Source of the DNA: Balanoglossus misakiensis
Lineage: Eukaryota > Animalia > Hemichordata
Assembly (NCBI GenBank): GCA_040954595.2
Contig: CM082583.2
Span: forward strand, 1,312,925 to 1,376,924
DNA: 64,000 nt
Direction: 5' to 3'
Shown: positions 20,851-64,000 of the stretch, piece by piece
How the letters are laid out: every line of letters begins with the position of its first letter
How positions within the stretch are numbered: position 1 is the stretch's first letter
Translations under genes and position numbers: made by a program
The notes under the pieces: model-generated
Databases searched by the model: none
What the model was told of the DNA's origin: nothing
The model's input: only the letters and a program-made list of their open reading frames with translations

Positions 20851-21186
20851 TATGGAGAAGTGAGAGATTTACTCCAGAAGGATCACGTGACGGAAACTCT
20901 TACCCTATCAGAGTTGACTTTGTTTCCCGCCAAACTTTATACTTGTAGCAGATTTATTGTAATTTTTGAGTGTTTGCTCCGGAGTTCGTGGGACTTATAT
21001 ATAACCCTGTTTTGGCGCTTTCGGGCAGCATTTTGTAAGGAGCTCTGTGGTGTTACTTTGTTGTTCGATTCAGATGGTAATAAACCAGTGTTTTACCTAG
21101 CACTGAATCGTTCGCTTCTTTTCCGACGTCAGTATACTCGAACCCCCTCCCGGGAGTATTGATCACTGCCACGATACTTCCCCACA
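20851..21186 (+). repeat. 3' LTR of B copy 1
   Basis: 336 bp; about 4 differences from the 5' LTR by eye. Confidence 0.95.
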
Positions 21187-38467: not shown

Positions 38468-39076
38468 CAAAATTGCCGAAAAAATTAATTTAAAAATAAT
38501 CTAATTAAATATTCATAAATATTGTTTAATAAAGTTTGTGCTTCCCGTAAAGACCAGTATCTAAGCTTTCTAAAAATATGAGGTTTATATAATTTCATGG
38601 TAGTTTTATTTTTTTAGGAGAGAATATAGTACCCCCTACCCCAACCCATTTTTCGCGGCACATACCATTCAAAAACCACTCCGGAGGGGTAGTGCAACCC
38701 AAAATATTCAATGTTAACATGTTTTTTCTTGTTCAGCACGTTCTAAAAAACAAAAAAATACCCAAGTGGTAGGTTTATGGGGGGGGGGGGGGTGCCTGGT
38801 GGACCCCTTCAGCCCACGGACTAAGAGATATTGACGGAATTCAAGAAAAAATAGCCATTTTGGCCATATTTTGACAAAAATGGTAAATTTTTAAAAAATC
38901 ATAAAAAATTAACTCTTTTTTTCATTTTCGGAAATATTATGGAGCATGAAGTGTCGTTCTCTTGTAAAAAGTGCTGCAAATTCCAGAAAAGGCGGTATAA
39001 TTTGAATCACCCAAGACAAAATTACCATTTTCGACTTTTTTTTCGTAAAATTGTCTTTTTTACAAAATAAATAAGA

Positions 39077-40222
39077 ATTAAAGCTGCAAGCAGCGTTGGC
39101 GGGGCACAAGCGGTTCCCATGGTAACCAGCAAATGCCAAGGCTGTATCTGCTGTGGATACCAAGATATGGGAAAGTTGGTCAAAGGTCACCTGAGGTCAC
39201 CCCAAATTTGGGCAAAAAAATCGGAACCCATACTAGTCTAGGTCCAACAAAAACCAGACCCCTAGCTTTATTGGTTCGCCTAGAATTAGGTATGCGCATA
39301 ATTAATGAGGTCTAGTGTAAGGCATAAAATTTTGACCCCAGAGTGGGCCATGTCCAACTAAAACCAGACCTCTAGCCCTATTGGTTAGCCTGGAATTATA
39401 TATGCAGAAAAATGATGTTTCAGAAATAGGTCAAGGGTCATTGTCAAAATTACCAAAATATTTGTGTCATGTCCTGGCACCATGTCCACAAAATTCATGA
39501 CTGTGGTGCTTTGACAAGAGGAGGTATGGGGAATATGCATATATAATTTGTTGTTTTAAAACCGGGTCAAAGGTCATGTGAAAATTGCCCCGAAAAATTG
39601 TGACAACTTCCGGTCATATGATGACTCATATCCGAAAAAAGAATTTCCATGCTGCCAACATTTTGGCTACAAAACGGAATTTTCATTTTTCAATGGTTTT
39701 CCGAAAATCCAACATGGCCGCCATAATGATCGACCAATCACAGTGCGCTTCGCAAACTTGATAGACATAGGTTAGGTGACCACATACCCCGAATCCCGTG
39801 ACTCGGCAATCGCTGGTTTTGGAGAAGAAGATTTTTAAAGTTTTAAGTAGTGATTCAGAAAAACAATTGTAGCAAAAAAACTTTGTGTGACGTCATGATA
39901 TCAATGGGCTAAAATGATGGACAGAAGGTAGGCTACCTGCACACCAAATTTGAACTCGATCAGCCCAGTGGTTTTTGAGAACGACTCGTTTAACGATTTT
40001 CAGGAAATCCAATATGGCCGCCAGGTCACGTGACTAATTAAATATTCACGAGCCACTGCACGTCTACCCATTGGCCCCTACCACCCTACCAAGTTTCAGC
40101 CCCCTAGGTGCTGCGGTTTTCCAGATGTACAATGACATATTTCTCGGAAGAAGAATAATAATAAAGAAGAAATATTCCAACAATACCAATAGGGGCACAA
40201 GCCCGATAGGCTTGTGCCCCTA
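39077..40222 (-). mobile_element. Non-autonomous Helentron/HINE (DINE-1-like), ~1146 bp
   Basis: 14-bp hairpin TAGGGGCACAAGCC/GGCTTGTGCCCCTA 40190-40222, adjacent AAG/AAT microsatellite, subTIR GGGGCACAAGC 39101-39111, terminal stem-loop GCTGCAAGCAGC 39083-39094; insertion between two T (minus strand) with no TSD. Confidence 0.85.
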
Positions 40223-43200: not shown

Positions 43201-45996
43201 GCACTTTCGAGCGGAAACACGCGTACATTGACCACGATGATCAAGTCAGATCTCCTACGGCCTGGCTCGACTAAAACCCCGGCACACCATGACAGACACT
43301 AGCGTTCGTTAGCAACGGTGATCAAGTCGGATTTCCTTCGGCCTGGCTCTGCAAAAGACCCGACACTCCAGTACAAAGACGTTGGCTAAGTCGGGCAAAC
43401 CGAAGAGGGAAAGTCACAGCGGGTCAACACTCGACATTTGTTCGGGTAGGACTGCATTATTGCCTGTCAATTTATAGAGAGAGCCCGAATTTAACCAGGG
43501 CCTTTCAGACACCGACGTTAGTTGGGGGCACGGCCTGCAGTACTACCGGGTAAGCTGACATCGGCGTACCGCATATAATGTAGGGGGGGGGACAGAACGG
43601 TTCAATACTACATTTATTAGATATCAGCTAATTTTGGACAATCATCTAAAATCTAAATCATTTTTTCATATTTGGATATCTGATGATGTATGAAATTTCC
43701 ATTATATGTAAAAATGGTGCTGATTATAAAAAATGCACTCTGAATGAGCTGATTTAATACAAAATTGCGTTTTATTCGTTTTTGCACCAAAAAGGTCATT
43801 TTTAGGGAAAACATTCTTTATTTTTTTAATTCGGTGACCTGATCATATATAAACAATTGCTTGTATGTTAAAAGTTTTTATGACTTTTAAAAGCAGTGAC
43901 ACTGGCGGCATTCAACACGAAAATAACAATTTTAGCCACAATTTGGTCAAAATGGTAAATTTTTGAAAATTACAAAAAATACCTGTTTTCTACATTTTCG
44001 GAAATCTGATGGAGTATAGAATGCTCTTCGTATATATATATCGATACAAATTCCACAAAAAACGGCCAACTTGGCTCACTGCAGACAAAATTGCGTTTTA
44101 CCAAATTTTCCTTGAAAATGTCATTTTTAGAAAAAAAAATAAAAAAAACCTTTGTTCTTCGAATTTGGTGCCCTGATCATATATGACATGTTGATTATAT
44201 GTTAAAACTTTCGACCACTCCAAAAATGCAGAGATATTGACGGAATTCAAGAAAAAATAGCCATTTGGCCATATTTTGACAAAAATGGTAAATTTTTAAA
44301 AAAATCATAAAAAATTAACTCTTTTCTTCATTTTCGGAAATATTATGGAGCATGAAGTGTCGTTCTCTTGTAAAAAGTGCTGCAAATTCCAGAAAAGGCG
44401 GTATAATTTGAATCACCCAAGACAAAATTACCATGTTCGACTTTTTTTCGAAAAATTGTCTTTTTTACAAAATAAATAAGAATAAATTCTTTTCTTAGTT
44501 TCAAACGGGTAGAGATACTTTCCACACGGGTTTTCTAACATTGAATTCCCATTCATCAACTCAGATTTCCTACAGCATAAGTCGGCTAAAACCCTGACAC
44601 TCTAGAGCAGAAACAGTTGCACACTGGTAACGTTGAACAAGTCGATTTTTCTACGGCCTGGCTCGGCTAAATCTCCGTCACAATATGACAGACACTAGCG
44701 TACGTTAGCAACGGTGATCAAGTCAGATTTTCTACGGCATGGCTTGGATAAAGCCCCAGCACTCCAGAGCAGAAACACGCGTACAGAGACCACGTTGATC
44801 AAGTCTGATCTCCTAAGGCTTGGCTCGACTAAAACCCAGGCACACTATGACAGACACTAGCGTTCGTTAGCAACGTTGATCAAGTCAGATTTCCTACGGC
44901 ATGGCTTGGCTAAAGCCCTGGCACTCTAGAGCAGAAACACGCGTACAGAGACCACGTTGATCTACTCACATTTCCTTCGGCCTGGCACGGCTGATGCCCC
45001 CGGCACTATATATAGGACACAAACTGGCGTAAGTTAACAACGGTAATCACGTCGGGTTTCCTACGGCCTGGCTCAGCTGAAGCCCCGGCACTCTAGAGCA
45101 GAAACAGGCGTACATTGACCACGTTGATCAAGTCAGATTTCCTACGGCGTGACTCGGCTGGTGCACCGGCTCTATATGACACAGACTGGCGTAAGTTATC
45201 AACGGTGATTACGTCGGATTTCCTACGGCCTGGTTTAGCTGAAGCCCCGGCACTTTAGAGCGGAAACACGCGTACATTGACCACGATGATCAAGTCAGAT
45301 CTCCTACGGCCTGGCTCGACTAAAACCCCGGCACACCATGACAGACACTAGCGTTTGTTAGCAACGTTGATCAAGTCGGAATTTCCTCGGCCTGGCTCTG
45401 CAAAAGACCCGACACTCTAGTACAAAGACGTTGACTAAGTCGGGCAAACCGAAGAGGGAAAGTCACAGCGGGTCAACACTCGACATTTGTTCGGGTAGGA
45501 CTGCATTATTGCCTGTCAATTTATAGAGAGAGCCCGAATTTAACCAGGGCGTTTCAGACACCGACGTTAGTTGGGGGCACGGCCTGCAGTACTGCCGGGT
45601 AAGCTGACATCGGCGTACCGCATATAATGTAGGGGGGGGGGACAGAACGGTTCAATACTACATTTTATTAGATATCAGCTAATTTTGGACAATCATCTAA
45701 AATCTAAATCATTTTTTCATATTTGGATATCTGATGATGTATGAAATTTCCATTATATGTAAAAATGGTGCTGATTATAAAAAATGCACTGTGAATGAGC
45801 TGATTTAATACAAAATTGCGTTTTATTCGTTTTTGCACCAAAAAGGTCATTTTTAGGGAAAACATTCTTTATTTTTTTAATTCGGTGACCTGATCATATA
45901 TAAACAATTGCTTGTATGTTAAAAGTTTTTATGACTTTTAAAAGCTGTGGCACTGGCGGCATTCAACACGAAAATAACAATTTTAGGCACAATTTG

Positions 45997-46332
45997 TATG
46001 GAGAAGTGAGAGATTTACTCCAGAAGGATCACGTGACGGAAACTCTTACCCTATCAGAGTTGACTTTGTTTCCCGCCAAACTTTATACTTGCAGCAGATT
46101 TATTGTAATTTTTGAGTGTTTGCTCCGGCGTTCGTGGGAATTATATATAACCCAGTTTTGGCGATTTCGGGCAGCTTTTTGTAAGGAGCTCTGTGGTGTT
46201 ACTTTGTTGTTGGATTCAGATGGTAATAAACCAGTGTTTTACCTAGCACTGAATCGTTCGCTTCTTTTCCGACGTCAGTATACTCGAACCCCCTCCCGGG
46301 AGTATTGATCACTGCCACGATACTTCCCCACA
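45997..46332 (+). repeat. 5' LTR of B copy 2
   Basis: 336 bp, same termini as copy 1. Confidence 0.95.
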
Positions 46333-46336
46333 TTTT

Positions 46337-46354
46337 TGGTGCCGAGACCAGGAT
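46337..46354 (+). promoter_or_regulatory. Primer-binding site, probably tRNA-His
   Basis: TGGTGCCGAGACCAGGAT, 17/18 match to TGGTGCCGTGACCAGGAT. Confidence 0.8.
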
Positions 46355-46365
46355 AACCGAGCAAG

Positions 46366-49300
46366 ATGTCGGAACAAGAACACATCGCGCCACAAGATGG
46401 ACAACAAGTGGATCAGCCAACAGCGTTGACAAAACTGAAGAGATCGCGTCGTGGTCAACGCGCACAAGTGACCCGACTGTTCAACCGGGCCGACACCCTC
46501 ATGAACAATTTCGTAGACGTCGGTACAGACAAGCCGACTACACTCGACACGCTGGAAGGGCTGAACGAACAACTTTCGAACAAGATCCGTCTACTCGCCG
46601 ACCTCGAGGTGAGAATCCTCGATCTAATTGACGATGAACACTTTGACGAAGAAAATGAAACTTCAGGCGACTACCACGCCGAAATCTTCGAACACAATCA
46701 TCGCATCGCATCTTTCATCAAGAAAAACAAATCGGAGATGCGGACAACTACTACTAGTACTGGTAATGTAACGGGAAGCAGCCTCGGCAACGCGACGCCT
46801 CGTAAAACAGTAACTCTACCGAAACTCCAGCTGCAAACTTTCTCAGGCAATGTAATAGAATGGTCGAGTTTCTTCGATGTATTCAAGTCTTCGATACCTT
46901 CGGACACTAATTTGGACAACATTCAGAAGTTTACGTATTTGCGGAGTGTACTCAAAGATGAAGCAGCGAGAACAATCAACGGATTGCCACTCACGCACGC
47001 GATTGACTTATTGACCGAAAGATACGGACAAACCCATCTCATAGTAGATGCTCACATGACCGCGTTGTGGAATCTAAAAAGCCCAACCGCCGACGTACAA
47101 AGTTTAAGGCATTTCTACGACTCGATTGAAAATCACGTTCGAGGTCTTCAGTCGCTGGGTAAGGAGGAAACCACATACGGCGAACTTTTGGGTCCAATAA
47201 TACGGGAGAAATTACCTCCTAACATTCGAGAGCAGATAGCAAGAAAACATGGTAATGCTGCGTGGACATTACCAGATCTACGAAAAGCCATTCAACACGA
47301 GATAAACGCCCTTCAAGCCGGCAACCGGGTCGACGAGATAACAATGGCCACTACCAGAGAACCGGAAATAACCGCGTTTCACACGAAAACGCAGATGACA
47401 GGTAAACAGAATTTTCGCGCCCCTGTCAAAACGTGCCCGTTCTGCAAAGGGTCACACTTCGCGTTAAATTGCACTGTGGTAACTGATACGCGCGAGAGAC
47501 TGGACATTGTGAAGAAGGACAGACTATGTTTTAATTGCTTTGGAAAACATAGAGTTGCGGAGTGTAAATCAAAATACTCCTGCAGAAAGTGTAGGAAACG
47601 TCATCACTCTGCGCTACACTACGACGTTCCCACCGCTACAACTACGCCAACCGGAGCGTCGTCCTCGCCATCGCCATCATCAAGTACTTCTGATGTCAAA
47701 GTAACATTGACTAATACCGATACATTTACGGATAAGAAGATAAACACTGGGCCAGTGCTGCTGAAAACTGCGTTTGTACCACTGTCTGTCGGACGGGGAA
47801 CCCCCATACATGCCATCATCCTGTTTGATGAAGGAGCAAATAAGACATTCGTCACTGAGAGATTCGCCCGTCAGCTGTCCGCGAAAGCTACGCGGCACGA
47901 ACACATAAAGTTATCGACCTTCCGTGGCAAGGATTCCAAAGTACGCACCATGGGATTCACCGAACTAACTGCTCATGAACTGAACGGGAATACTTCAACT
48001 ATTCACGCGATGATAATTCCAGAGATATCGTCGGACTTAACAAATCACATTTCTCAGGAAGTCCACAATATGAGCCACCTGAAAGGGCTACCATTCGCAC
48101 ATCCAGTTTCGAGTGATCAGTCGTGGCCAATTGATGTTCTAATCGGAGCCGACCAATATTGGAATTTCGTGGGCTCACACGTTATTTCTGGCGCGTCCGG
48201 CCCCACTGCTGTGTCATCCAAATTTGGATACTTACTCTCCGGACCCCTCGGAACTCCAAAAGTGGATTCTAATGCGCATATCTTACATGTGATTTCTACT
48301 GCTGATACCAGTAACGTAGTTTCAGAGAACTCTATCAACGGACTGCATGGAGATCGCGCAACGGACATGTATACACCGATGGATAGTACTGCGATCGGCC
48401 GAGAACCACAGGTCCAAAATATGTGGGACCTTGAATTGATCGGTATTCAGGACAATCCAACAGTTGATGAACAGTTGACGTACGAGTCTTACAGAGACAC
48501 GCACTTGAGAGTTGACCGAGGAAAATACGTAGCTAAACTACTGTGGAAGGAAGATCACCCTCCACTACCCACCAACTACGATGTCGCCATGAAACGCACG
48601 CGTAATATGATACGCAGGTTACCCTCTGAACTCATCAAGAAATATGACGACATAATCAATGAACAGAGACGTCGCGACTTCATCGGAGAGGTTGACGAAG
48701 ATGACGTGAATATCGGACACTATTTGCCACATCGTCCGGTGGTTAAGAATTCGACCACAACACCCATTCGCATCGTTTATGATTGCTCTTGTAAGAAGGA
48801 TTCTAATTATCCAAGTTTGAATGATTGCTTGCAAACTGGACCGTCATTAATAAATGACCTGCCAGCGATTCTGCTGAGATTCCGCGCCAATAACATTGCT
48901 TTCACAGCTGACATTGAGAAAGCATTCCTGAACATTCGGTTGGAAGAAGATGAGAGGAAATTCACGAAATTTCTGTGGCTGTCGGACATTAACGACCCAG
49001 AAAGTGACTTCATAACTTTGCAGTTTAAGTCTGTCTTGTTTGGAGCAGTCTGTTCCCCATTCATCCTCAATGCGGTTATCAAGACGCATTTAGAGAACAA
49101 TAGTCAACTTCCCACCGCTGACAGATTGGGAAATAATATCTATGTGGATAATGTGATCGATGGAGTTGATATTTTGCTAAGATTTTCGAAGCTGTCATTG
49201 TCCCTCATATCTACCAGCATGTTCAACCAAATATATCCATTGATCAGCATGGATTTGTTAAAAATAGATCTACCACAACCAACTTAGTGGCTTACACTGA

Positions 49301-52300
49301 TTTCATTTCAGCTTCATTGAACAACAAAGAACAGGTAGATTCAATCTACACTGATTTTAGCAAGGCGTTTGACAGTGTCTGTCACACACTACTGCTGTAC
49401 AAAGCCGCCAATTTTGGTATATGTGGCAATTTGCACAGCTGGCTGGCGTCGTATCTCCATCTCAGACAACAGAGGGTGGTGTTTGGCAGTCACTCGTCAA
49501 ACAGCTTCACTGCTACATCGGGGGTCCCACAAGGTTCACTCTTGGGGCCACTACTTTTTGTAATGTATATAAATGATATATCACTGTTAGATATTTCTGC
49601 AAAGCTCAGCATGTATGCCGACGATGCTAAGATTTACCGTACCATCACCTCCTCCGCTGATTGTGACTTGTTACAGAAAGACCTTGATAAATTTGCTCTC
49701 TGGTGTGACAACTGGAAGTTGTCACCTAATATCAATAAATGCAAATTCATCAGTTTCACCCTAAAGAAAAGGGTTATTTCATCTACTGACTACTCTATCA
49801 ATGGCACTCCCCTTCAACGTGTTTCTGTAATCAAGGACTTAGGGATATACCTTACTTCTAATCTCAATTATTCTTTCCACATAAATAACACAGTTTCCAG
49901 AGCCTTCAAATCTCTGGGTTTTATTAAGCGCCTCTGCCAGCCTTTTAATGACATATCCGCTATTATTTCTCTATATTTTGTTTATGTAAGATCTATTCTA
50001 GAGTATGGCTCTGTTGTGTGGTCACCCCACCAAAAGGGCCTGTCAGACAAGATTGAGCGGGTACAAATTAAGTTTGTGAAGTACATTTGTTGCAAACTCA
50101 ATATTCACTGCAGCAGGTCCAGCTACCCTATTTATTGTAGATTACTGAATATCCCAATGTTATATAACAGAAGACTCACCCTTGACATGTTTTTTTATAC
50201 AAAATTATCCACTCACAGTATGATTCACCTGGTATTTTAAATCAAATATGTTTTTACGCCCCTAGTAGAAATTTACGCAAGAAACCCCTTTTTAAACCCG
50301 ACTTGCGCTCCGTTAATTGTAGAAAATTCTCGACAATGCTCAGATGCATGTCTGCTTTTAATGAGATTTCTTCTAAATGTGATATTGATATTTTTTCTAC
50401 GCTCCACAGTTTTAAATCTATTTTATCCAGTCATTTTAATGGTACTGTTCCTTGATTTGTATTTATATTTTACGTGACATGTGTTACTTTTTTGGTGTCT
50501 TGTTTTTCAGTTAATTTTTGTTTTGTGACTTAATTGTTTTTATTGTTTCCCAGATCTGTAAGTGGGTTTGCCCGTTGATCTGTGTAATAAATAAATAAAA
50601 AAAAATACTGCAGAAAACTCCATGAAATACTACCATGAAGCCAATGAGTTGATGACATCAGGCGGATTCAAACTCAGAGCATGGTCTTCCAACTGTCAAC
50701 AAATAAACGAACTCGCTACATGTGACAATCTGAACGAACCCACCGAAGATGTATCCGTTTTGGGAATGCAGTGGTCAACAAAATCTGACGAATTGACTTA
50801 CTCCAAAGTGGTTAATATGTCGTCGCGTGCCGAACTCGTGACCAAACGTGACATTGTCAGCTATGTGGCGATGCTATTTGATCCGTTTGGATTTCTCGCC
50901 CCTGTAATGATCAAAGCCAAATTGTTCATTCAGTTACTATGGAAACTGGAATTAGACTGGGATGAACCTATCAACGCAGATCTCTACACTCAATGGATGC
51001 ACATCGCATAAGATCTCAAAGACTCGCGAAACACGAAGATCGAACGACAATATTTTGATGAACTTGAAGGCGACAATGAATGCGAGCTACACGCCTTTGC
51101 AGACGCAAGCCAGAGAGCGTATGGGGCAGTAGTGTATTTGAAAAGAGGACAGCAAACGTCGTTTGTGATGGCGAAGACTAGAACCGCACCAGTGGCTGAA
51201 ACTACACTCCCGCGACTGGAATTGATGGCTGCGTTAATAGCCACACGTCTCAGCAAGTACGCTAAAGAAGCCCTGTCCTCCAAATATGACATAGTTCGTT
51301 GTTATTTATGGAGTGACAGCCAAATTGTCCTTCACTGGCTGAACAGTGAGAAGAGACTTCCGGTGTTTGTGAAGAATCGAGTAGATGAAATTCGCGAATT
51401 TCAGTCCACAAAGAAATACTGCCCATCAGAACACAACCCAGCTGATCTTTTAACCAGAGGGGTAACCTACGAAATGATGGAACGCTCTGAACTATGGCGT
51501 AATGGACCAACATGGCTAAAGACAAGCGATTGGCCTAGTTGCCCAGCGTTTGATGTTAATGTGATGCATACCGCAATCGAACCAGATGAGACGGACAGAT
51601 TGCCGCCGCGTTTCGGCAACGGAATCAACGATCAGTCTACCGAGAAGGCAGAAATACTCGCTCCCCCCAAAGCCAGACGATGTACAGATCGCGAAAATCT
51701 GGAAATTACCAGTCCCAATGACTACGGAATTCAACACGTTGTTGACATTTCCAGATTCAACAACTTGGATAGGCTATTACGAGTGACAAGTTATGTCCTC
51801 AGATTCATCGCACGGATGAAAAAATCTACCGAGGTGAAACACGGGAGAATTACCCCTGATGAGCTGCACCGAGCGGAAAATATGTGGGTTAAACATATTC
51901 AACGGCAGTTCTATGACGCCGAAATCCAGTCTGTGAAATTGAACTTGAGTAAATGTGCGCCCATTGTTCGACAACTGAACTTATTTGTTGACGAAGAAGA
52001 CGTACTTCGCTGTGGGAGTAGAATCCATAACGTGCCGATCGATTTCGTCACAAGATTTCCCGCCTTGATACCCTCGCATCATAAATTGACAAATTTGATA
52101 ATACGGAAATCACACGAACTGACGCTTCACCAGGGAGTCCAATCTACAGTGACACAGATAAGGCAAAGATATTGGATCCCCAAAATTCAGATTATTGTAC
52201 GCGGTGTCTTACGTGGTTGTGTCATTTGCAACAAAGTTACCGGGAAACCTTACGCGAATCCAGTGCAAGCGCCGCTACCAAGTTATCGAGTGAACATTGT

Positions 52301-53411
52301 CCCAGCATTTACTGTAACAGGCGTGGATTTCACGGGTCATCTTTATACCAAGGCCAAAGATGGGACACGTGCCAAAGCCTATATCTGTTTATTCACCTGT
52401 GCGGTGACGCGTGCCATTCACCTAGAACTGGTTCCTGATATGTCAACCCAGACGTTCATGCACGCGTTCAGAAGATTCGCCGCGAGACGTTCTTTGCCGA
52501 GTAGGATGCTGTCAGACAACGCATCGACTTATTTATCGGCTGCCAATGAAATCAATACACTGTTTGATACGCCAGAAGTAAATGACTTTCTCGCCGCACA
52601 CCGTGTACAATGGACGTTTATACCGAAGCGCGCGCCCTGGTTTGGTGGCTTCTGGGAGAGGCTGATTGCTTTGACAAAGAACGCTATTAGGAAAACTCTC
52701 GGTCGAGCTTACCTAACCTTTGATGAACTCGCAACAGTTGTGACTGAAATTGAAGCCGTTTTAAACGACAGGCCGTTAACGTACGTGTCATTTAGTATAA
52801 ACGACAACATTGGATTGACCCCAAATCACTTGCTACATGGCAGGACACTGACCTCATTGCCGTACATCGAGATCACCGACGAAGAGGTGATTGACCCATC
52901 TTACTGTGATAATCGTGAAATCAACAAAAGATATGAACATCTATCAAGATTACACGATCAATTTTGGCGAAGATGGTCGTCCGAGTATCTGACTGCCCTA
53001 CGTGAACGACATCCCACCAAAGGAACTCGTGATAATGTCATCAAGGTCGGAGATGTCGTGATAATACACAGTGACACTGACAAACGTCCGAAATGGCATT
53101 TAGGAACTGTAACAAGGTTGATCTTCGGTAATGATAAACTGGTACGATCTGCGGAGTTGAACACCGCAGGTGGTCCTACAAACCGACCTATCCATAAATT
53201 GTACCCATTGGAAGTTGTCTCCAAGGAGCTGTCAACTGTGTCTGGAGATAATACAGGTATTGGAGCAGATTCCAACACGAATACTGAAACAGTCGACACA
53301 GCTGGAGCCTCTGAAGATTCCTCGGTGAAGGCGGATGTTGTACCCCCGAGACGACCTGTCAGAGACTCTGCAGTTGCCGCTCGAGTACGAATAGCGGATC
53401 TCTCTATTTGA
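46366..53411 (+). pseudogene. BEL/Pao gag-pol of B copy 2
   Basis: Open from 46366 to the LINE junction at 49171, resumes after ~50605, one TAA at 51009-51011, then open through the integrase to 53411. Confidence 0.95.
49172..50604 (+). mobile_element. 5'-truncated CR1/T1-type non-LTR retrotransposon
   Basis: QHGFVKNRSTTTNL, QVDSIYTDFSKAFD, SGVPQGSLLGPLLF, YADD, VRSILEYGSVVWSP; 3' (TAAA)n/oligo-A tail; absent from B copy 1; at most a 3-bp duplication ATA. Confidence 0.92.
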
Positions 53412-53583
53412 CTTTGAAATTGGAAAACAATTTCGATCGCATTGTGACTGTTATCATGTTTACTGACACAATGAACATTAGTTTATTATCCTTGAACACT
53501 TTAGGTGACTTTAATCATATTTCATGTTATTTAATGTTTTTTTTTCTGATGATTTTCGAGACTTTCCTTTGCGCGGGGGAGAA

Positions 53584-53919
53584 TATGGAGAAGTGAGAGA
53601 TTTACTCCAGAAGGATCACGTGACGGAAACTCTTACCCTATCAGAGTTGACTTTGTTTCCCGCCAAACTTTATACTTGTAGCAGATTTATTGTAATTGTT
53701 GAGTGTTTGCTCCGGCGTTCGTGGGACTTATATATAACCCAGTTTTGGCGCTTTCGGGCAGCATTTTGTAAGGAGCTCTGTGGTGTTACTTTGTTGTTGG
53801 ATTCAGATGGTAATAAACCAGTGTTTTACCTAGCACTGAATCGTTCGCTTCTTTTCCAACGTCAGTATACTCGAACCCCCTCCCGGGAGTATTGATCACT
53901 GCCACGATACTTCCCCACA
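53584..53919 (+). repeat. 3' LTR of B copy 2
   Basis: 336 bp; about 6 differences from its 5' LTR by eye. Confidence 0.95.
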
Positions 53920-56900
53920 ATTTGGTCAAAATGGTAAATTTTTGAAAATTACAAAAAATACCCGTTTTCTACATTTTCGAAAATCTGATGGAGTATAAAA
54001 TGCTCTTCGTATGTATATATCGATACAAATTCCAAAAAAGACAGTCTAATATGGCTCACTGCAGACAAAATTGCGTTTTACCAAATTTTCCTTGAAAATG
54101 CCATTTTTAGAAATAAAAATAAAAAAACCTTTGTTCTTCGAATTTGGTGCCCTGATCATATATGACATGTTGATTGTATGTTAAAACTTTCGACCACTCC
54201 AAAAATGCAGAGATATTGACGGAATTCAAGAAAAAATAGCCATTTTGGCCATATTTTGACAAAAATGGTAGATTTTTAAAAAATCATAAAACATTAACTC
54301 TTTTCTTCATTTTCGGAAATATTACGGATCATGAAGTGTCGTTCTCTGTAAAAAGTGCTGCAAATTCCAGAAAAGGCGGTATAATTTGAATCACCCAAGA
54401 CAAAATTACCATTTTCGACTTTTTTTCGGAAAATTGTCTTTTTTACAAAATAAATAAGAATAAATTATTTTCTTAGTTTCAAACGGGTAGAGATACTTTC
54501 CACTCGGGTTTTCTAACATTGAATTCCCGTTCATCAACTCAGATTTCCTACAGCATAAGTCGGCTAAAACCCTGACACTCTAGAGCAGAAACAGTTGCAC
54601 ACTGGTAACTTTGAACAAGTCGATTTTTATACGGCCTGGCTCGGCTAAATCTCCGTCACAACATGACAGACACTAGCGTACGTTAGGAATGGTGATCAAG
54701 TCAGATTTTCTACGGCATGGCTTGGATAAAGCCCAGGCACTCTAGAGCAGAAACACGCGTACAGAGACCACGTTGATCAAGTCTGATCTCCTACGGCTTG
54801 GCTCGACTAAAACCCAGGCACACTATGACAGACACTAGCGTTCGTTAGCAACGTTGATCAAGTCAGATTTCCTACGGCATGGCTTGGCTAAAGCCCTGGC
54901 ACTCTAGAGCAGAAACACGCGTACGGAGACCACGTTGATGTACTCACATTTCCTTCGGCCAGGCACGGCTGATGCCCCGGCACTATATATAGGACACAGA
55001 CTGACGTAAGTTAACAACGGTAATCACGTCGGGTTTCCTACGGCCTGGCTCAGCTGAAGCCCCGGCACTCTAGAGCAGAAACAGGCGTAGATTGACCACG
55101 TTGATCAAGTCAGATTTCCTACGGCGTGACTCGGCTGGTACACCGGCTCTATATGACACAGACTGGCGTAAGTTACCAACGGTGATTACGTCGGATTTCC
55201 TACGGCCTGGTTTAGCTGAAGCCCCGGCACTTTAGAGCGGAAACACGCGTACATTGACCACGATGATCAAGTCAGATCTCCTACGGCCTGGCTAGACTAA
55301 AACCCCGGCACACCATGACAGACACTAGCGTTTGTTAGCAACGTTGATCAAGTCGGAATTCCTTAGGCCTGGCTCTGCAAAAGACCCGACACTCTAGAGC
55401 AGAAACACGCGTACAGAGACCACGTTGATCTACTCGGATTTCCTTCGGCCTGGCTCTGCAAAAGACCCGACACTCTAGTACAAAGACGTTGGCAAGTCGG
55501 GCAAACCGAAGAGGGAAAGTCACAGCGGGTCAACACTCGACATTTGTTCCGGTAGGACTGCATTATTGCCTGTCAATTTATAGAGAGAGCCCGAATTTAA
55601 CCAGGGCGTTTCAAACACCGACGTTAGTTGGGGGCACGGCCTGCAGTACTGCCGGGTAAGCTGACATCGGCGTACCGCATTTAATGTAAGGGGGGGGGGA
55701 ACAGAACGGTTCAATACTACATTTATTAGATATCAGCTAATTTTGGACAATCATCTAAAATCTAAATCATGTTTTCATATTTGGATATCTGATGATGTAT
55801 GAAATTTCCATTATATGTAAAAATGGTGCTTATTATAAAAAATGCACTCTGAATGAGCTGATTTAATACAAAATTGCGTTTTATTCGTTTTTGCACCAAA
55901 CAGGTCATTTTTAGGCAAAACATTCTTTATTTTTTTAATTCGGTGACCTGATCATATATAAACAATTGCTTGTATGTTAAAATTTTTAAGACTTTTAAAA
56001 GCAGTGACACTGGCGGCATTCAACACGAAAATAACAATTTTAGCCACAATTTGGTCAAAATGGTAAATTTTTGAAAATTACAAAAATACCTGTTTTCTAC
56101 ATTTTCGGAAATCTGATGGAGTATAGAATGCTCGTCGTATGTATATATCGATACAAATTCCACAAATGACCGTCTAATTTGTCTCACTGCAGACAAAATT
56201 GCTTTTTACCAAATTTTCCTTGAAAATGTCATTTTTAGAAAAAAAAATAAAAAAACCTTTGTTCTTCGAATTTGGTGCCCTGATCATATATGACATGTTG
56301 ATTGTATGTTAAGACTTTCGACCACTCCAAAAATGCAGAGATATTGACGGAATTCAAGAAAAAATAGCCATTTTGGCCATATTTTGACAAAAATGGTAAA
56401 TTTTTAAAAAATCATAAAAAATTAACTCTTTTCTTATTTTTTCGGAAATATTATGGAGCATGAAGTGTCGTTCTCTTGTAAAAAGTGCTGCAAATTCCAG
56501 AAAAGGCGGTATAATTTAAATCACCCAAGACAAAATTACCATTTTCGACTTTTTTTTCGAAAAATTGTCTTTTTTACAAAATAAATAAGAATAAATTCTT
56601 TTCTTAGTTTCAAACGGGTAGAGATACTTCCCACACGGGTTTTCTAACATTGAATTCCCGTTCATCAACTCAGATTTCCTACAGCATAAGTCGGCTAAAA
56701 CCCTGACACTCTAGAGCAGAAACAGTTGCACACTGGTAACGTTGAACAAGTCGATGTTTCTACGGCCTGGCTCCGCTAAATGTCCGTCACAATATGACAG
56801 ACACTAGCGTACGTTAGCAACGGTGATCAAGTCAGATTTTCTACGGCATGGCTTGAATAAAGCCCCGGCACTCTAGAGCAGAAACACGCGTACAGAGACC

Positions 56901-59852
56901 ACGTTGATCAAGTCCGATCTCCTACGGCTTGGCTCGACTGAAACCCCGGCACACTATGACAGACACTAGCGTTCGTTAGCAACGTTGATCAAGTCAGATT
57001 TCCTACGGCATGGCTTGGCTAAAGCCCTGGCACTCTAGAGCAGAAACACGCGTACGGAGACCACGTTGATGTACTCACATTTCCTTCGGCCAGGCACGGC
57101 TGATGCCCCGGCACTATATATAGGACACAGACTGACGTAAGTTAACAACGGTAATCACGTCGGGTTTCCTACGGCCTGGCTCAGCTGAAGCCCCGGCACT
57201 CTAGAGCAGAAACAGGCGTAGATTGACCACGTTGATCAAGTCAGATTTCCTACGGCGTGACTCGGCTGGTACACCGGCTCTATATGACACAGACTGGCGT
57301 AAGTTACCAACGGTGATTACGTCGGATTTCCTACGGCCTGGTTTAGCTGAAGCCCCGGCACTTTAGAGCGGAAACACGCGTACATTGACCACGATGATCA
57401 AGTCAGATCTCCTACGGCCTGGCTAGACTAAAACCCCGGCACACCATGACAGACACTAGCGTTTGTTAGCAACGTTGATCAAGTCGGAATTCCTTAGGCC
57501 TGGCTCTGCAAAAGACCCGACACTCTAGAGCAGAAACACGCGTACAGAGACCACGTTGATCTACTCGGATTTCCTTCGGCCTGGCTCTGCAAAAGACCCG
57601 ACACTCTAGTACAAAGACGTTGGCAAGTCGGGCAAACCGAAGAGGGAAAGTCACAGCGGGTCAACACTCGACATTTGTTCCGGTAGGACTGCATTATTGC
57701 CTGTCAATTTATAGAGAGAGCCCGAATTTAACCAGGGCGTTTCAAACACCGACGTTAGTTGGGGGCACGGCCTGCAGTACTGCCGGGTAAGCTGACATCG
57801 GCGTACCGCATTTAATGTAAGGGGGGGGGGAACAGAACGGTTCAATACTACATTTATTAGATATCAGCTAATTTTGGACAATCATCTAAAATCTAAATCA
57901 TGTTTTCATATTTGGATATCTGATGATGTATGAAATTTCCATTATATGTAAAAATGGTGCTTATTATAAAAAATGCACTCTGAATGAGCTGATTTAATAC
58001 AAAATTGCGTTTTATTCGTTTTTGCACCAAACAGGTCATTTTTAGGCAAAACATTCTTTATTTTTTTAATTCGGTGACCTGATCATATATAAACAATTGC
58101 TTGTATGTTAAAATTTTTAAGACTTTTAAAAGCAGTGACACTGGCGGCATTCAACACGAAAATAACAATTTTAGCCACAATTTGGTCAAAATGGTAAATT
58201 TTTGAAAATTACAAAAATACCTGTTTTCTACATTTTCGGAAATCTGATGGAGTATAGAATGCTCGTCGTATGTATATATCGATACAAATTCCACAAATGA
58301 CCGTCTAATTTGTCTCACTGCAGACAAAATTGCTTTTTACCAAATTTTCCTTGAAAATGTCATTTTTAGAAAAAAAAATAAAAAAACCTTTGTTCTTCGA
58401 ATTTGGTGCCCTGATCATATATGACATGTTGATTGTATGTTAAGACTTTCGACCACTCCAAAAATGCAGAGATATTGACGGAATTCAAGAAAAAATAGCC
58501 ATTTTGGCCATATTTTGACAAAAATGGTAAATTTTTAAAAAATCATAAAAAATTAACTCTTTTCTTATTTTTTCGGAAATATTATGGAGCATGAAGTGTC
58601 GTTCTCTTGTAAAAAGTGCTGCAAATTCCAGAAAAGGCGGTATAATTTAAATCACCCAAGACAAAATTACCATTTTCGACTTTTTTTTCGAAAAATTGTC
58701 TTTTTTACAAAATAAATAAGAATAAATTCTTTTCTTAGTTTCAAACGGGTAGAGATACTTCCCACACGGGTTTTCTAACATTGAATTCCCGTTCATCAAC
58801 TCAGATTTCCTACAGCATAAGTCGGCTAAAACCCTGACACTCTAGAGCAGAAACAGTTGCACACTGGTAACGTTGAACAAGTCGATGTTTCTACGGCCTG
58901 GCTCCGCTAAATGTCCGTCACAATATGACAGACACTAGCGTACGTTAGCAACGGTGATCAAGTCAGATTTTCTACGGCATGGCTTGAATAAAGCCCCGGC
59001 ACTCTAGAGCAGAAACACGCGTACAGAGACCACGTTGATCAAGTCCGATCTCCTACGGCTTGGCTCGACTGAAACCCCGGCACACTATGACAGACACTAG
59101 CGTTCGTTAGCAACGTTGATTAATTCAGATTTCCTACGGCATGGCTTGGCTAAAGCCCTGGCACTCTAGAGCAGAAACACGCGTACAGAGACCACGTTGA
59201 TCTACTCACATTTCCTTTGGCCTGGCACGGCTGATGCCCCGGCACTATATATAGGACACAGACTGGCGTAAGTTAACAACGGTAATCACGTCGGGTTTCC
59301 TACGGCCTGGCTCAGCTGAAGCCCCGGCACTCTAGAGCAGAAACAGGCGTACATTGACCACGTTGGTCAAGTCAGATTTCCTACGGCGTCACTCGTCTGG
59401 TGCACCGGCTCTATATGAGACAGACTGGCGTAAGTTATCAACGGTGATTACGTCGGATTTTCTACGGCCTGGTTTTGCTGAAGCCCCGGCCAATGTGGGA
59501 TTTCCCTTTATTGTGTGTTTTACAATTGGTAAAGCAGTTTCTCACACTGTTAAACTATTTTTATTGATGGAAAAGTGGTAAAAATACTGGAGAAACAATG
59601 TAAAATCACCTTTTACTGAGTTTTCTCTTACTAATTAGCATAAAAATTGTTATAAAACAGTAAACGATCCAGTGTATTTTTACACACACACACCTCTCTC
59701 GACTCACACAGATCTGCAGAATGTATGCATGTGTTATGGTACATATTCTGAAATGATTCACAGCAAGATCACTACATATACATTGAAACTTTTTAAATTC
59801 GAAACGACAATATACATATATATACATTATCTACTGTTCAACAATCTTTATT

Positions 59853-62800
59853 TCACTTTTGGTATGGCCCACGTTTTTTTACTTCTGGTACAACATGGCT
59901 GGGGTGTGATTTTATGTGGTGATCTTTCATCATTAACTCTACCTTCTTTAGATTGTCCCCAGGTACACAGTTATAACTTCTCAGTGATTTATTCATGCGA
60001 TGGTGGGTTGATTCTATCCCTTGTTCAGAAAACAAGCCCAACCCTCTCTGAAAATGCCTCACCCTTTTTGCAACATGGCACTCAAGCAGATGGAGTTTGG
60101 GAAAAACATTCTGGGATGGGAACGTTTCTCTGTAATGCTGTAGTAGCTGTGAAATAGCAGAATCTGAAAAAAGGAAAGAATTATAAAATAGCATATGCAT
60201 AGTGAAAACATTACAAAAAATTTCTATGTATCATCTACAGTTTCTCATATTACTTTCCACACTTGTATATTCACAACTGAATCTATATATATGCTATATA
60301 TATATAGAACAAAAATCATGCACTGCTATAAGATTGCATTGGGATGCTTACTTGTATTATATATTTAATGATGCTAGTAGGAAGTGCACAAGGAACTGTA
60401 GTTGATTTGTAGAACAATAACATGAAGTGTTTACAAACAATGAAGCTGTAATATATTTGAAGTTATTTGTGACATTAAAAAACTACTGAAAAATACAGTA
60501 CAATAAAAATACTGAACTAAAAGCATGCAGGAATACTTATCCGAATAAATAACAAGCTTATATCCTGTGCATGGATTGATATCCCAAATTGTAGAATACA
60601 ACAGTATGTTATCCAAACTTTGCGATGGAAATCATTTAACTAAACAAATGCAGAAACAGAGAAAATATTAGTAGGGAAATCAAATCTCCAAAATACAATC
60701 TTCTTCATGTTGGCATGCAAACAGCACCTGAGAAATAAATACTGTACAACTAGAAACTCTATTACATGAAAAGGTAAATAAAATCTTTCATGAGACATTG
60801 TATACTCAACACACCCAATGTATCAATTTCCTCTGCGCAGAGTTCTCTATTCACAGAATATATGTTATGGCAGGTAGCAAAGTGTGTAAACAGTTGTTGA
60901 TGCTTTGACATAATTTGCCGAGCGTTGCTGAAAAGATCAGGACAACATTTCTCAGTTGTAGTTACTACACTGTCACAAAGGATAGTAACATGCTTTGGCT
61001 GAAAAGTAAAATAGATGGTTACTCCACTGACATGTACACGAAGGCATGTTCAGAACATAGAAAAAATTAAACCTAAAATTTGTAACAATTGAAAACTATT
61101 GACATTTATGCAGTCTTTTAACATTTTCTTTCACAAAGATATAAAATCAATTATGTATGTAAATAAATGTAAAATGAAAATTATGAACTAACTACATGTT
61201 TACTATCTGCATAGTACATTTCACAAAAGTAAAACCTGATTACAACTAATGTTGATTCACATTAATGCATGCTTATGATTGGTGGACATGCACAAAAACT
61301 GAAAAGCAAAATGTTTGTATTTAAAAAAAGAAAACACATTCTGAAAGAGAACTTGAAACAAATTGACAAAGTGTCAGTGGTCATGCAAACTCAGAACAAT
61401 ATTTATCCTACATGGTATGACAAACCTTGCAACATTTGTTGACATGATTGCCAACAAAGGCCTGGCTATGGTAATCCTGCAAGTGTACATTAATTTTTGC
61501 AAGGGCTCTATCAAGAGCCCTCACAGTATAACCTGCATGTTGCGGGAGTTTTCCTTTCAAGTCTTCAATTATCTGAAGCTAAGAAAGTATGATAATCCAT
61601 TTGTTACTTTTCCTGTAAAGTGAATAAAAGTAAAATTAGATGAAAAACAATTGAAAGTCGAACAACATTAAGATATTAACCTTTTCCTTTGCCTGATCAT
61701 GTAATTGTGAACACTCCTTTTCCATTTGCATGGCCTGGACAAGTGAGGGTTGACTGTCGTCATTGTCGTCATCATCATCATCATCGTCGTCCCCACTTTC
61801 TTCCAGTAACATTGCTTTGTCAATGGCACCTCTAACACTTTCTGCCCTATCCTGTAGCTCAGCCAGTAAGGATTCTTCTTTCATGATTTTGTTGATGATG
61901 TTGACATACTCGTCAAACAACTCACAGGGCAGAACGGGCTCATCAATATCATCCTCTCTTGCTAAACGCAGGAAGATTTCAACATCATGCAATCTGCATG
62001 CCTCTTGCAGCATCTTAAACCATCGGTGAAAAATTCCAAGAGAAATGTGTAACACTGGCAGAGCAACCTAAGTGTATATGAAGAAGATCATTAGAGGGAC
62101 AATATCTGTAACTTTAGGCTACTTTTGTCAGTATCTTCTTGACATGAAATCACTTTTTAGCATAAACAACCATGCTCGAACTCACATATATGAGGTTTAC
62201 TGAGCAAATTAATAATAAACGTTTCATATGGGGGTGGGGGACTCAAGGTACACACTTTTTAACAAAATAAAAATACTGACAAAAGTTGCTAAATGAAGCT
62301 TTAAATACTAATATAATAATCTAAAGAATCTGGTTGAGAAAAAAGAAATATTAATATTGTTGATGAATGTCAATTTCACTAACCCTTTTAAGTGGGATAT
62401 TGAACAATGGTTTACGTATACAGTTGTTAAATTCTTTCGCATCTTTCAGGTTTGATCCTTTCTCTGTAAACCGGGCATAGTCTTGATGAATCCGGGTGAG
62501 CGTCCTCGCTGGAATGGGTGGTCTGCGCTCAGGGTCCAAAAGTGATGTTTCCTTGGTAATCAGGCACCACAGACAGAAGTACTTTCCTGTCAAACACAAT
62601 TTATTTGTTGTTTTTCAAAAGATGAAATTTTGAAAGTTAGAGTATCCAACTGCAAAATGCATTATTTGACAAGACGTAAATTGAGCACCTGCCACTTGCT
62701 CCAGACAACCCGTAGCTCTTACAAAGGTACTCATAGTCACTAGTAATGTGTACGCGGAGTAACCATTCCCTAAACAGTGCACATAAAAAGAATTAAATAC

Positions 62801-64000
62801 AAAGATAATATTCATTCATGACAAAATACAGTCATTACCCTTAGCAAGTGAAACAAGATGTAAATAAAAACAGAAAGGTACTTACTTCCATTTGTGTTCA
62901 TCGAGCAGATCTATTTGGCCTGAATTCACAGTCATTGCTCTGCGGAGGTTTCTGTAGCTGTCACCAGCTAGGAACAAATTCCAAACAACCGTGTTTTCAA
63001 CACTGTTAGGTTGTTCAACGTTGAGGATCTGGAAGGTTGATTTCATTGAGCCACCTCCGTGATCACCACCAACTTTAATCCAGATCTCATTTGCAGGGAT
63101 ACCCTTGTGTGAAACAAGCTTTGATGTACTAGTCAAATAAAAAGAAATCAACAAATTTATGAGACACATTTTCTGAAAGCAACTTTATATTGTAGGTAAA
63201 ATGCTTTCAATGAGTCGTTCAAAAATGGGCACCTGTGAAATATTTTAAGGTCTATTGATTTTCATGAAACATGTGTTTTGCTGACTAAACTATTGTACAT
63301 TATGCATTATGAGTATGGACTTCATGCAATAACATGTACCTTCACAGTATCAATTTCGCCTACCTTCGTAATTTCCTCAATGTTGACCAAGTGATATCAA
63401 GGTCGGTTTTCAAAAGTAACCCAGCACCAGGTGGTGCGTTAGCTGCTATGCCGAGTGATTCCAGAATCGATTCCTTATTTTCTTTGCCCATCCTTTTGAA
63501 GTCAGCACCAGCTTGTATAGTGGAGGAATCGCCTCCACCACTGACTGTCTCTCTTACTTCTTTCAAACTCTTCGACCTCTCTATTAATGTATATTTACTA
63601 CAGTCCTGGCTTGTTATACGCGGTTTGGTTATTTTTGCCATGATTAAAGGCTGCAAAGTAAATGATAGAATTTCCTTCTTTACAGTGTTTTTAAACATGA
63701 TATAGTTTTGCTATCCTTTATGTATCAATGATTGGGTTTGACTAGCAATATAATTTTGACATACACACAGTGACATGATTTCAAAGGTAAATCTTGAAAC
63801 TGCTTTTTAAACGGATCTCATACTCACTTGTCCCCCTGTCTTAAATCTAACGGTGTTGTCCTCTGCCATGCTCATATTTTCTTTCAGAATTCTGGTAGCC
63901 AGGACCTCAAACTCTCTGTATTCTCTGAACTGATGCATTCTATCCAGAATTGTAGCAGTAGCTGTGGTAGTTGACTGTAGTGGCGAAGTTTGCTCTGTTG
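59853..64000 (-). CDS. Multi-exon RAG1/Transib/Chapaev-like DDE transposase, 5' end outside window (~671 aa visible)
   Basis: Phase-consistent exons 64000-63828, 63650-63364, 63128-62886, 62769-62693, 62586-62384, 62067-61681, 61578-61426, 60998-60815, 60163-59853, with no internal stops. Motifs KVGGDHGGGS, TSDYEYL..YGLSGASG, CLWC, LHISLG, FVGNH, PKLHLLECH, SEQGIESTH. Confidence 0.82.
61755..61790 (-). repeat. Coding (GAT/GAC)n microsatellite giving a poly-Asp tract
   Basis: TCGTCATTGTCGTCATCATCATCATCATCGTCGTC on +, encoding DDDDDDDDDNDD in the exon frame. Confidence 0.8.

What the first reader, a model, noticed from the sequence alone, without database searches (positions are those of the whole stretch)
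59853..64000. Intron-rich RAG1/Transib-like transposase gene with an open spliced frame and a complete active site
Seen: nine minus-strand exons join in phase into ~671 aa without a stop. Three of them (62769-62693 VHITSDYEYLCKSYGLSGASG; 61578-61426 QDYHSQAFVGNHVNK; 60998-60815) are not recovered in frame by the ORF track. Established: mouse RAG1 uses D600, D708 and E962, with Zn ligands C727/C730/H937/H942. Here GGDHG, TSDYE, CLWC, LHISLG, VGNH, HLLECH and SEQGIESTH occur in the same order as RAG1 SCDGM, GYDEK, CTLC, LHCDIG, NGNF, HKTLAH and SEGNESGN. TGGQP...KPR loosely recalls the GGRPR start of the nonamer-binding domain. Inference: a young or constrained member of the RAG1/Transib/Chapaev radiation. 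Only 362 bp lie downstream of the stop, so there is no room for a tail-to-tail RAG2-like gene as in ProtoRAG.
Basis: partly seen in the sequence, partly recalled or inferred. Interest (0 to 1): 0.8.

Follow-up and report, generated by a model that had tools for sequence, protein, structure and literature searches.

The report
Chapaev transposase copy missing one exon
This is a real spliced gene for a cut-and-paste jumping-gene enzyme of the known Chapaev family, a distant cousin of the antibody-gene recombinase RAG1, but it lacks a whole exon that its relatives keep and shows no family-type end downstream, so it is likely a dead or crippled copy sitting at the edge of a satellite array.

Summary
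In detail: nine minus-strand exons splice to 671 codons without a stop, with the D/D/E, CxxC, LH and HxxxxH motifs in order. One junction needs a GC donor. The protein is a Chapaev transposase (Pfam DUF1280), not RAG1L or Transib. Its nearest relatives carry the Chapa zinc finger, some with a RING, and related loci are single-gene 4.4-4.9 kb elements with CAC ends and 4-bp target duplications. A relative's model matches RAG1 (Z 26).

All 88 of 88 relatives spanning this region keep them, and in 9 of 10 loci tested they form one phase-2/phase-2 exon. Its loss keeps the frame open but likely removes part of the DDBD and most of the preR-equivalent region. No family-type 3' end is present. A deep contig from a run holding this stretch has the same intron 2 and a stop at codon 183.

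Verdict: a young, likely defective Chapaev copy beside a 2.1-kb satellite. Ordinary.

The parts
63828..63998 (-). Exon 1 of the visible gene (aa 1-57), open at the window edge; ends in TGGQ. The Chapa/RING N-terminus of relatives would lie beyond 64000.
63364..63650 (-). Exon 2 (aa 58-152), NBD-like helices and start of the DDBD-like region; ends LRKLR at a phase-2 GT donor
63129..63363 (-). Intron 2 (235 nt). Site where relatives have intron + 207-228 nt exon + intron; no trace of that exon in any frame
62886..63128 (-). Exon 3 (aa 153-233), first catalytic Asp D175 in GGDHG; Pfam DUF1280, E 2.1e-11, 44.3 bits against a cut-off of 25
62693..62769 (-). Exon 4 (aa 234-259), second catalytic Asp D245, preceded by Ser where 127 of 132 relatives have Gly; followed by a GC donor
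62384..62586 (-). Exon 5 (aa 260-327), C264/C267 (C(2)C motif)
61681..62067 (-). Exon 6 (aa 328-456), L333-H334 and a long helical, acidic insertion
61426..61578 (-). Exon 7 (aa 457-507), YH..AFVGNH
60815..60998 (-). Exon 8 (aa 508-568)
59853..60163 (-). Exon 9 (aa 569-671 and stop), H593/H598 (H(4)H motif) and catalytic E619
59491..59852 (-). 3' flank, 362 bp, ending at the satellite; holds no CACGG-type terminus
5268..59490 (.). Satellite array of about 2.1-kb monomers with 81/162-bp subrepeats (34.5 kb of satellite, interrupted by other elements); cut mid-monomer at 59490

Best explanation
This is a Chapaev-family DNA transposase gene that lacks one whole exon kept by its relatives and shows no family-type 3' end, and it is likely a young but defective transposon copy that cannot move itself. 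Intact members likely work as single-subunit, RAG1-fold cut-and-paste enzymes: an RNase H-like D/D/E site and a C2H2 zinc module cut at short CAC..GTG ends and insert with a 4-bp duplication (ends and duplications shown in relatives; chemistry inferred from the RAG1/Transib fold). In this copy a deletion between two phase-2 introns likely removed a 70-codon exon, so exon 2 can splice to exon 3 in frame; the open frame is therefore explained by exon symmetry and youth and is not evidence of function. The lost piece is a well-ordered helix-hairpin-helix unit in the relative's model and likely equals the second half of the DDBD and most of the preR region of RAG1. The copy probably also lost its 3' end at the satellite junction, and any extra copies were probably multiplied passively with the satellite.
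For: Family: exon 3 hits DUF1280 above its cut-off and none of 9 exons hits a RAG1 family at E<=1; DUF1280 is described as Chapaev transposase (PMC3985635); 30 of 30 relatives scanned hit DUF1280, 10 of 30 RAG1_imp_bd at the N-terminus, 9 of 30 a RING, none a RAG1 core family; the window protein groups with P0115, P0091 and the Chapa+RING protein P0151 (FastTree support 0.95). Element type: 8 of 10 related loci with both ends read have a 4-bp duplication and CACGG/CGCGG ends. Fold: model of P0059 (pLDDT 85) matches RAG1 Z 26.0, rmsd 3.9 over 453; BbRAGL Z 23.9; HzTransib Z 22.9; P element 11.8. Missing exon: 12 residues against 71-88 in 36 of 36 full-span relatives; 88 of 88 proteins spanning both flanks keep it; 59 of 61 loci score for it and the other two show degenerate versions by eye; it is one phase-2/phase-2 exon of 207-228 nt in 9 of 10 loci tested; no trace in six frames of the window; run X1 contigs bridge intron 2 in the window's form. 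Decay: X1's 3067-bp contig carries a stop at codon 183 and Gly at 244; 5 nonsynonymous, 2 synonymous, 17 intronic differences, p 0.09. End: best match to relatives' ends in the flank has 4-5 mismatches in 12, the shuffle level; flank 380 nt against 509-574 nt in 6 relatives.
Against: The window's frame has no stop or frameshift and keeps 48 of 50 highly conserved columns. Nonsynonymous differences are fewer per site than intronic ones (0.0032 against 0.0080), a non-significant trend toward constraint. The stop is seen in one contig of one run; X2 shows no countable depth at that base. Inactivity was not assayed, the window's own spliced protein was not folded, and the mapping of the lost exon onto RAG1 domains rests on a profile alignment at one end and on distance to the first Asp at the other. 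The 5' end and N-terminus lie outside the window. Copy number rests on contig depths that the tool says are no copy number. The tree had no RAG1, RAG1L or Transib outgroup. An X2 loose end at 63233 hints that some molecules differ inside intron 2.
Confidence: 0.8

Rival explanations
1. The gene is an intact, active or constrained RAG1-like transposase.
For: Open 671-codon frame, D175/D245/E619 and C264/C267/H593/H598 present; near-identical contigs at 99% or more in run X1 show youth.
Against: Exon kept by 88 of 88 relatives is absent; it forms ordered core structure in the relative's model, pLDDT 93-98; no family-type 3' end; stop codon in the X1 contig. At 0.4-0.8% divergence a neutral copy keeps an open frame with probability 0.16-0.40 under a simple model that assumes indels at a tenth of the substitution rate.
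Confidence: 0.04
2. The exon-less gene is kept by the host or the element as a DNA-binding, catalytically crippled regulator, for example a repressor of intact Chapaev copies or a satellite-associated protein.
For: Clean in-frame loss of one exon, all other exons open; position at a satellite edge; contig depth about 300 against about 40 for a diverged relative in X1; weak trend to fewer nonsynonymous changes.
Against: Nonsense codon in the X1 contig and G-to-S at a 96% conserved site in the window; constraint not significant; symmetric exons are lost in frame without any selection.
Confidence: 0.07
3. The missing exon or the satellite junction is an assembly artefact, and the real locus is a full-length Chapaev element.
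For: The region is highly repetitive; contigs break at 63233 and one X2 contig has a loose end there.
Against: X1 contigs run 60167-63232, 63203-63263 and 63234-63917 with overlaps and no insertion, at depth 188-317; an X1 contig with a variant at 59492 aligns across the satellite junction. X1 and X2 are one sample and may be the source of the assembly, so this is not independent of the organism but is independent of the assembler.
Confidence: 0.05
4. The gene belongs to RAG1L (ProtoRAG/TransibSU) or to Transib and not to Chapaev.
For: The best solved-structure matches of the relative's model are RAG1, BbRAGL and HzTransib; the family profile hits RAG1 at E 9e-10.
Against: No Chapaev entry appeared among the listed solved-structure matches, so RAG1 is simply the nearest solved fold; identity is 12-14%; the profile hit comes mostly from the N-terminal zinc finger and NBD, while core-only RAG1 chains score E 0.004-0.13, BbRAG1L E 0.16; exon 9 and P0001 find no RAG1 chain at E<=10; relatives have 4-bp, not 5-bp, duplications and no convergent ORF above 66 codons.
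Confidence: 0.03

Closest known systems
Chapaev transposases, Chapa+RING subgroups (Chapaev-1/2_BF, Chapaev-1/2_NV type; Pfam DUF1280 PF06918; described in PMC4411706, PMC4079192, PMC3985635)
   Same: DUF1280 match; D/D/E with C(2)C, LH and H(4)H motifs; nearest relatives (37% identity to P0151 of Ptychodera flava over the core) start with a Chapa zinc finger of the pattern shown in supplement 5 of PMC4411706 (compared by eye and by a pattern of my own) and often a RING; shared intron positions with related loci that have CAC ends and 4-bp duplications.
   Different: This copy lacks one 70-codon exon, has a GC donor at intron 4 where 10 of 11 relatives use GT, and has no family-type 3' end. 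Its N-terminus and 5' end could not be seen. No direct comparison with Repbase Chapaev core sequences was possible.
RAG1 and RAG1L of ProtoRAG (PDB 6dbo, 5zdz, 4wwx, 6b40)
   Same: Same overall core fold in a relative's model (Z 24-26), same order of catalytic and zinc residues, related N-terminal zinc finger and NBD-like region.
   Different: 12-14% identity; no RAG2-like partner in bounded relatives; 4-bp instead of 5-bp duplication; a long helical insertion after the LH motif.
Transib (HzTransib, PDB 6pqx)
   Same: Same core fold (Z 22.9, rmsd 3.7 over 400); single-gene element with CAC ends.
   Different: Canonical Transib has no Chapa or RING domain (PMC4411706) and usually a 5-bp duplication; the family profile finds no HzTransib chain at E<=10.

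Membership tests
Chapaev transposase (protein family) | Match to DUF1280 (PF06918) above the curated cut-off | tested here: met
   Exon 3: 44.3 bits against 25, E 2.1e-11; DUF1280 = Chapaev per PMC3985635
Chapaev transposase (protein family) | DDE triad with C(2)C, LH and H(4)H motifs (PMC4079192, PMC12730594) | tested here: met
   D175, D245, E619, C264/C267, L333-H334, H593/H598, each conserved in at least 98% of aligned relatives
Chapaev transposase (protein family) | Groups with Chapa-bearing transposases | tested here: met
   Clade with P0115, P0091, P0151, support 0.95; no RAG1/Transib outgroup in the tree
Chapaev transposase (protein family) | N-terminal Chapa zinc finger, with RING in some subgroups (PMC4411706) | not testable with these tools
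   Lies beyond 64000; no genome held. Present by pattern in 28 of 35 relatives of 850 aa or more, RING in 11 of 35
Intact Chapaev transposon (element) | 5'-CAC...GTG-3' terminal inverted repeats | tested here: not met
   3' side only: no CACGG in 59481-59853; best match to relatives' ends at shuffle level. A CACTG at 59545-59550 does not continue like relatives' ends. The copy is therefore not filed as an intact element
Intact Chapaev transposon (element) | 3-4 bp target-site duplication | not testable with these tools
   Far end outside the window; 4-bp duplication in 8 of 10 related loci with both ends read
Intact Chapaev transposon (element) | Complete transposase core | tested here: not met
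   About 70 residues missing, kept by 88 of 88 relatives
RAG1L / ProtoRAG / TransibSU | Core more than 30% identical to RAG1 (PMC4411706) | tested here: not met
   No RAG1 chain found by exon 9 or P0001 at E<=10; 12-14% in structural alignments of relative P0059
RAG1L / ProtoRAG / TransibSU | Convergent RAG2-like gene | tested here: inconclusive
   None in the 362-bp flank, but that flank is probably clipped; 0 of 6 bounded relatives have a convergent ATG-ORF above 66 codons (unspliced ORFs only)
RAG1L / ProtoRAG / TransibSU | 5-bp target-site duplication | not testable with these tools
   Not visible for the window; relatives show 4 bp
RAG1-fold DDE transposases (works like) | RNase H-like core with ZnC2/ZnH2 module as in RAG1 | tested here: met
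   Tested on relative P0059 (34% identical), not on the window's own protein: Z 26.0 to RAG1, next unrelated fold Z about 8
Canonical Transib | Core only, without Chapa or RING (PMC4411706) | tested here: inconclusive
   Window N-terminus not visible; its nearest full-length relative P0151 has both

The most novel reading that the evidence does not exclude
An exon-less Chapaev transposase with all catalytic and zinc residues is expressed and kept at a satellite edge, either as a minimal RAG1-fold enzyme that does without the DDBD/preR segment or as a dominant-negative regulator of intact copies that was multiplied along with the satellite.
Probability: 0.06. Interest if true: 0.6.

Novelty: new member of a known kind. 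Interest (0 to 1): 0.12.

Why it matters
As it stands it matters little: Chapaev elements are described, widespread in marine animals (2455 clusters at E<=0.001 for one relative) and often met in this scan (96 earlier notes in at least 44 genomes). The case is a useful warning that an open spliced frame with a full active site can still be a deletion derivative when a symmetric exon drops out. The side results, a conserved ten-exon plan and bounded relatives with CACGG ends and 4-bp duplications, point to better candidates (L042, L044, L035, L054, L010) for anyone who wants to test how the Chapaev sister group of RAG1 transposes; PMC4079192 (2014) calls Chapaev biology largely uncharacterised and a 2026 preprint says Chapa-domain function has not been tested.

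Tried and rejected
No whole genome is held, so copies, the 5' end and the N-terminus could not be searched. Single-exon and single-protein searches of solved structures found no RAG1. A word-based search with exon 3 found nothing, and one with the N-terminal 130 residues of P0004, meant to collect RAG1/RAG1L sequences for an outgroup, found only P0004; the tree therefore has no outgroup. No RNA holder listed. A hidden mini-exon in intron 2 was sought by profile (scores at or below 0.3 bits) and by listing AG/GT-GC pairs (none in frame); rejected. The idea that exon loss is a trait of the sub-lineage was rejected: sister protein P0115 keeps the segment. CACTG at 59545 and CAATG at 59491 were considered as termini; neither resembles relatives' ends beyond chance. 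The idea that the 2.1-kb satellite monomer is a tandem non-autonomous element with inverted ends found no support (no inverted repeat at E<0.2 in the monomer). Locus L010 gave no candidate in the exon-phase script; L006 and L052 showed no duplication. A paper search for Chapaev with satellite DNA gave 11 papers, seen as listing only, none on this subject by title. Look-ups of earlier findings by place, by sequence and for Chapaev in this genome returned nothing.
Full report
Observation. The minus strand of 59853-64000 holds nine exons that splice to 671 codons and a TGA (coordinates under parts). All eight introns end in AG, seven begin with GT and intron 4 begins with GC; exons are 39-47% GC and introns 25-31%. 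The model is not a chance join: it aligns collinearly with P0001 over exons 3-9 (31% identity, E 6e-74), a profile of 36 relatives hits all exon regions in the expected frames, and related loci have introns at the same profile positions, about 242, 341, 408, 490, 517, 585, 691, 737 and 800. At intron 4, 10 of 11 relatives read by eye use a GT donor at the same phase-1 site, so the GC is probably a change in this lineage; a GT four bases upstream would keep the frame at the cost of one residue.

Family. Of nine exons scanned, only exon 3 hits Pfam: DUF1280, 44.3 bits against a cut-off of 25. PMC3985635 (passages) says DUF1280 corresponds to Chapaev transposases and places it in one clade with RAG1. 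A search with P0001 gave 2455 clusters at E<=0.001, of which 150 were returned. Of 30 scanned (30 of 150, chosen for length), 30 hit DUF1280, 10 hit RAG1_imp_bd at the N-terminus, 9 a RING family, none a RAG1 core family. By a pattern of my own, 28 of 35 core-covering relatives of 850 residues or more begin with a Chapa-type zinc finger and 11 have a RING. PMC4411706 (passages and part 1 of 2 of supplement 5) describes this Chapa, RING, core layout for two Chapaev subgroups and says canonical Transib has the core only and TransibSU is more than 30% identical to RAG1. In a FastTree tree of 90 cores (75 of 157 proteins and 18 loci entered, 4 rows dropped for gaps; no outgroup) the window protein is sister to P0115 (0.98) and joins P0091 and P0151 (0.95); these are named as uncharacterised proteins of Ptychodera flava. 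P0151 has Chapa and RING.

Fold. The window's spliced protein was not folded. A relative, P0059 (951 aa, 34% identical), folded with 70 sequences gave pLDDT 85. Foldseek ranks RAG1 first (E 2.5e-14), then BbRAGL and HzTransib. VIA-align gives RAG1 Z 26.0 (rmsd 3.9, 453 aligned, 14% identity), BbRAGL 23.9, HzTransib 22.9, P element 11.8, Hermes 8.2. The family profile aligns GDYE with RAG1 GYDE, CLWC with CTLC, KxHxxxxH with HKTLAH, and the second Glu of EQGxE with E962, which is Gln in the mutant chain (these core stretches score weakly). D175 = D600 is inferred from order and invariance (116 of 116). So it works like RAG1/Transib by fold, and belongs by sequence to Chapaev.

Related elements. 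A scan of metagenome contigs gave 74 loci. Several form dispersed families of 4.4-4.9 kb with sharp ends. Of 10 loci with both ends read, 8 have CACGG or CGCGG ends and a 4-bp duplication; L052 and L006 show CAC ends without one. Seven of the eight come from two families in one assembly series, so they are not independent. PMC4079192 (passages) gives CAC..GTG ends, 3-4 bp duplications and C(2)C, LH, H(4)H as Chapaev hallmarks, with 3 bp TWA for Chapaev3 (also PMC3014272, passages). None of 6 bounded relatives has a convergent ATG-ORF above 66 codons.

The missing exon. Between the end of exon 2 and the start of exon 3 the window has 12 residues where 36 of 36 full-span relatives have 71-88. 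All 88 proteins, of 157 held, that span both flanks keep the segment, including P0115. Of 74 loci, 61 span both flanks; 59 score for the segment and L036 and L064 show degenerate versions by eye. In 9 of 10 loci tested the segment is a single exon of 207-228 nt between two phase-2 introns. A profile of it finds nothing in six frames of the window or in intron 2, and no in-frame mini-exon exists there. Because both flanking introns are phase 2, loss of the exon leaves the frame open. In the P0059 model the segment is residues 393-464, pLDDT 93-98: a helix, a long hairpin and a helix. The end of exon 2 aligns near RAG1 residue 485-490 and exon 3 starts about 20 residues before the first Asp, so the loss likely spans about RAG1 486-580. 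By the boundaries in PMC13056857 (passages) that is half of the DDBD (459-515) and most of preR (515-588), both listed among the essential core subdomains in PMC7204232 (passages). That the exon-less protein is inactive is inference.

Reads. Two runs of one sample hold the stretch; no RNA holder is listed. X1 contigs cover 59493-64000 in overlapping pieces at depth 224-317 and bridge intron 2 in the window's form; one contig continues 1.5 kb beyond 64000. The X1 contigs differ from the window at 25 listed sites: 17 intronic, 1 in the 3' flank, 2 synonymous, 5 nonsynonymous. One of these is a stop at codon 183, eight residues after the first Asp, and one gives Gly at 244, the family residue, where the window has Ser. 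X2 has no countable depth at the stop site. Nonsynonymous differences per site (0.0032) are below intronic ones (0.0080) but not significantly (Fisher p 0.09). A diverged relative (84% over exon 2, depth 43, with a frameshift) shows 8 synonymous changes among the 14 listed of 58, a sign of past selection on the family; it leaves the window 37 bases into intron 2 and its next 30 letters end in a pyrimidine run, AG and G, as an acceptor for the missing exon would (my reading of a loose end, weak). The depth ratio of about 7 in X1 and about 10 in X2 hints at several near-identical copies, but the tool warns that depth is no copy number.

Setting. The window is mostly a satellite of about 2.1-kb monomers with 81/162-bp subrepeats, 34.5 kb in all, broken by other elements. 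The gene-bearing segment meets it mid-monomer at 59490/59491. No CACGG lies in the flank, the best match to relatives' ends is at shuffle level, and the flank is 380 nt from the profile end against 509-574 nt in six relatives; the 3' end was probably clipped. An X1 contig aligns across this junction and no X1 loose end was listed there (17 rows not shown). The same BEL/Pao element sits twice at the same monomer position, 98.5-98.9% identical, which fits block duplication of the array but also a preferred target site.

Against my reading: the window's frame is unbroken, 48 of 50 highly conserved columns are kept (the second exception, Y473, is shared with P0151), the stop rests on one contig, and an X2 loose end at 63233 is unexplained.

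Literature seen: passages of PMC3985635, PMC7642931, PMC12730594, PMC4411706 (plus one part of one supplement), PMC3014272, PMC4079192, PMC7204232, PMC13056857 and preprints 10.64898/2026.01.24.700457 and 10.64898/2026.08.26.747230; other papers as search listings only. The original Repbase reports and Repbase sequences were not seen, and preprint supplements were closed, so this exact family may already be catalogued. The names BEL/Pao for the neighbouring retroelements and the idea of deletion derivatives acting as repressors come from my own knowledge, not from a call.

Verdict. Observation confirmed, interpretation partly supported. A new member of a known kind: a Chapaev transposase gene, likely defective through loss of a symmetric exon and of its 3' end. 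Interest 0.12.

Noticed in passing
window 5268-59490: Satellite of about 2.1-kb monomers, each with a block of 81/162-bp subrepeats and an AT-rich part; 34.5 kb here and extremely deep in both runs.
   Followed up: partly
window 14708-21181 and 45997-53914: Two copies of one LTR retrotransposon (BEL/Pao-like by recalled motifs, 331-bp LTRs), 98.5-98.9% identical, at the same monomer position; the second holds an insertion with a reverse-transcriptase ORF near 49170-50240.
   Followed up: partly
window 1-5267: Another LTR retrotransposon of the same kind with a 1280-codon ORF, abutting the satellite.
   Followed up: no
window 34615-38823: 4.2-kb element with long terminal inverted repeats starting TAGTCC, an internal 376-bp tandem repeat and a reverse-transcriptase fragment at 37076-37696, inserted in the satellite with an apparent AGA duplication.
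   Followed up: no
window 39082-40221: 1.14-kb non-satellite insertion in an AT-rich part of the monomer; not identified.
   Followed up: no
window 63233: Contigs of both runs break here at a cryptic AG in intron 2; one X2 contig continues with 27 unrelated letters. Could be an insertion allele or a chimera.
   Followed up: partly
window 63327-63688 (run X1, record 7): A diverged Chapaev copy in the same sample, 84% identical over exon 2, with a frameshift; may keep the exon that the window lacks.
   Followed up: partly
L042 5550-10409, L044 5531-10406, L035 5575-10359, L054 5564-10338, L010 285-4729: Cleanly bounded Chapaev elements with CACGG ends and 4-bp duplications; in the L042 family a GGGCAC motif lies 16 nt from the 5' tip and 27 nt from the 3' tip, an asymmetry of about one helical turn.
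   Followed up: no
L013, L021, L024: Related loci whose core is one uninterrupted ORF, so intron-less versions occur beside the ten-exon plan.
   Followed up: no
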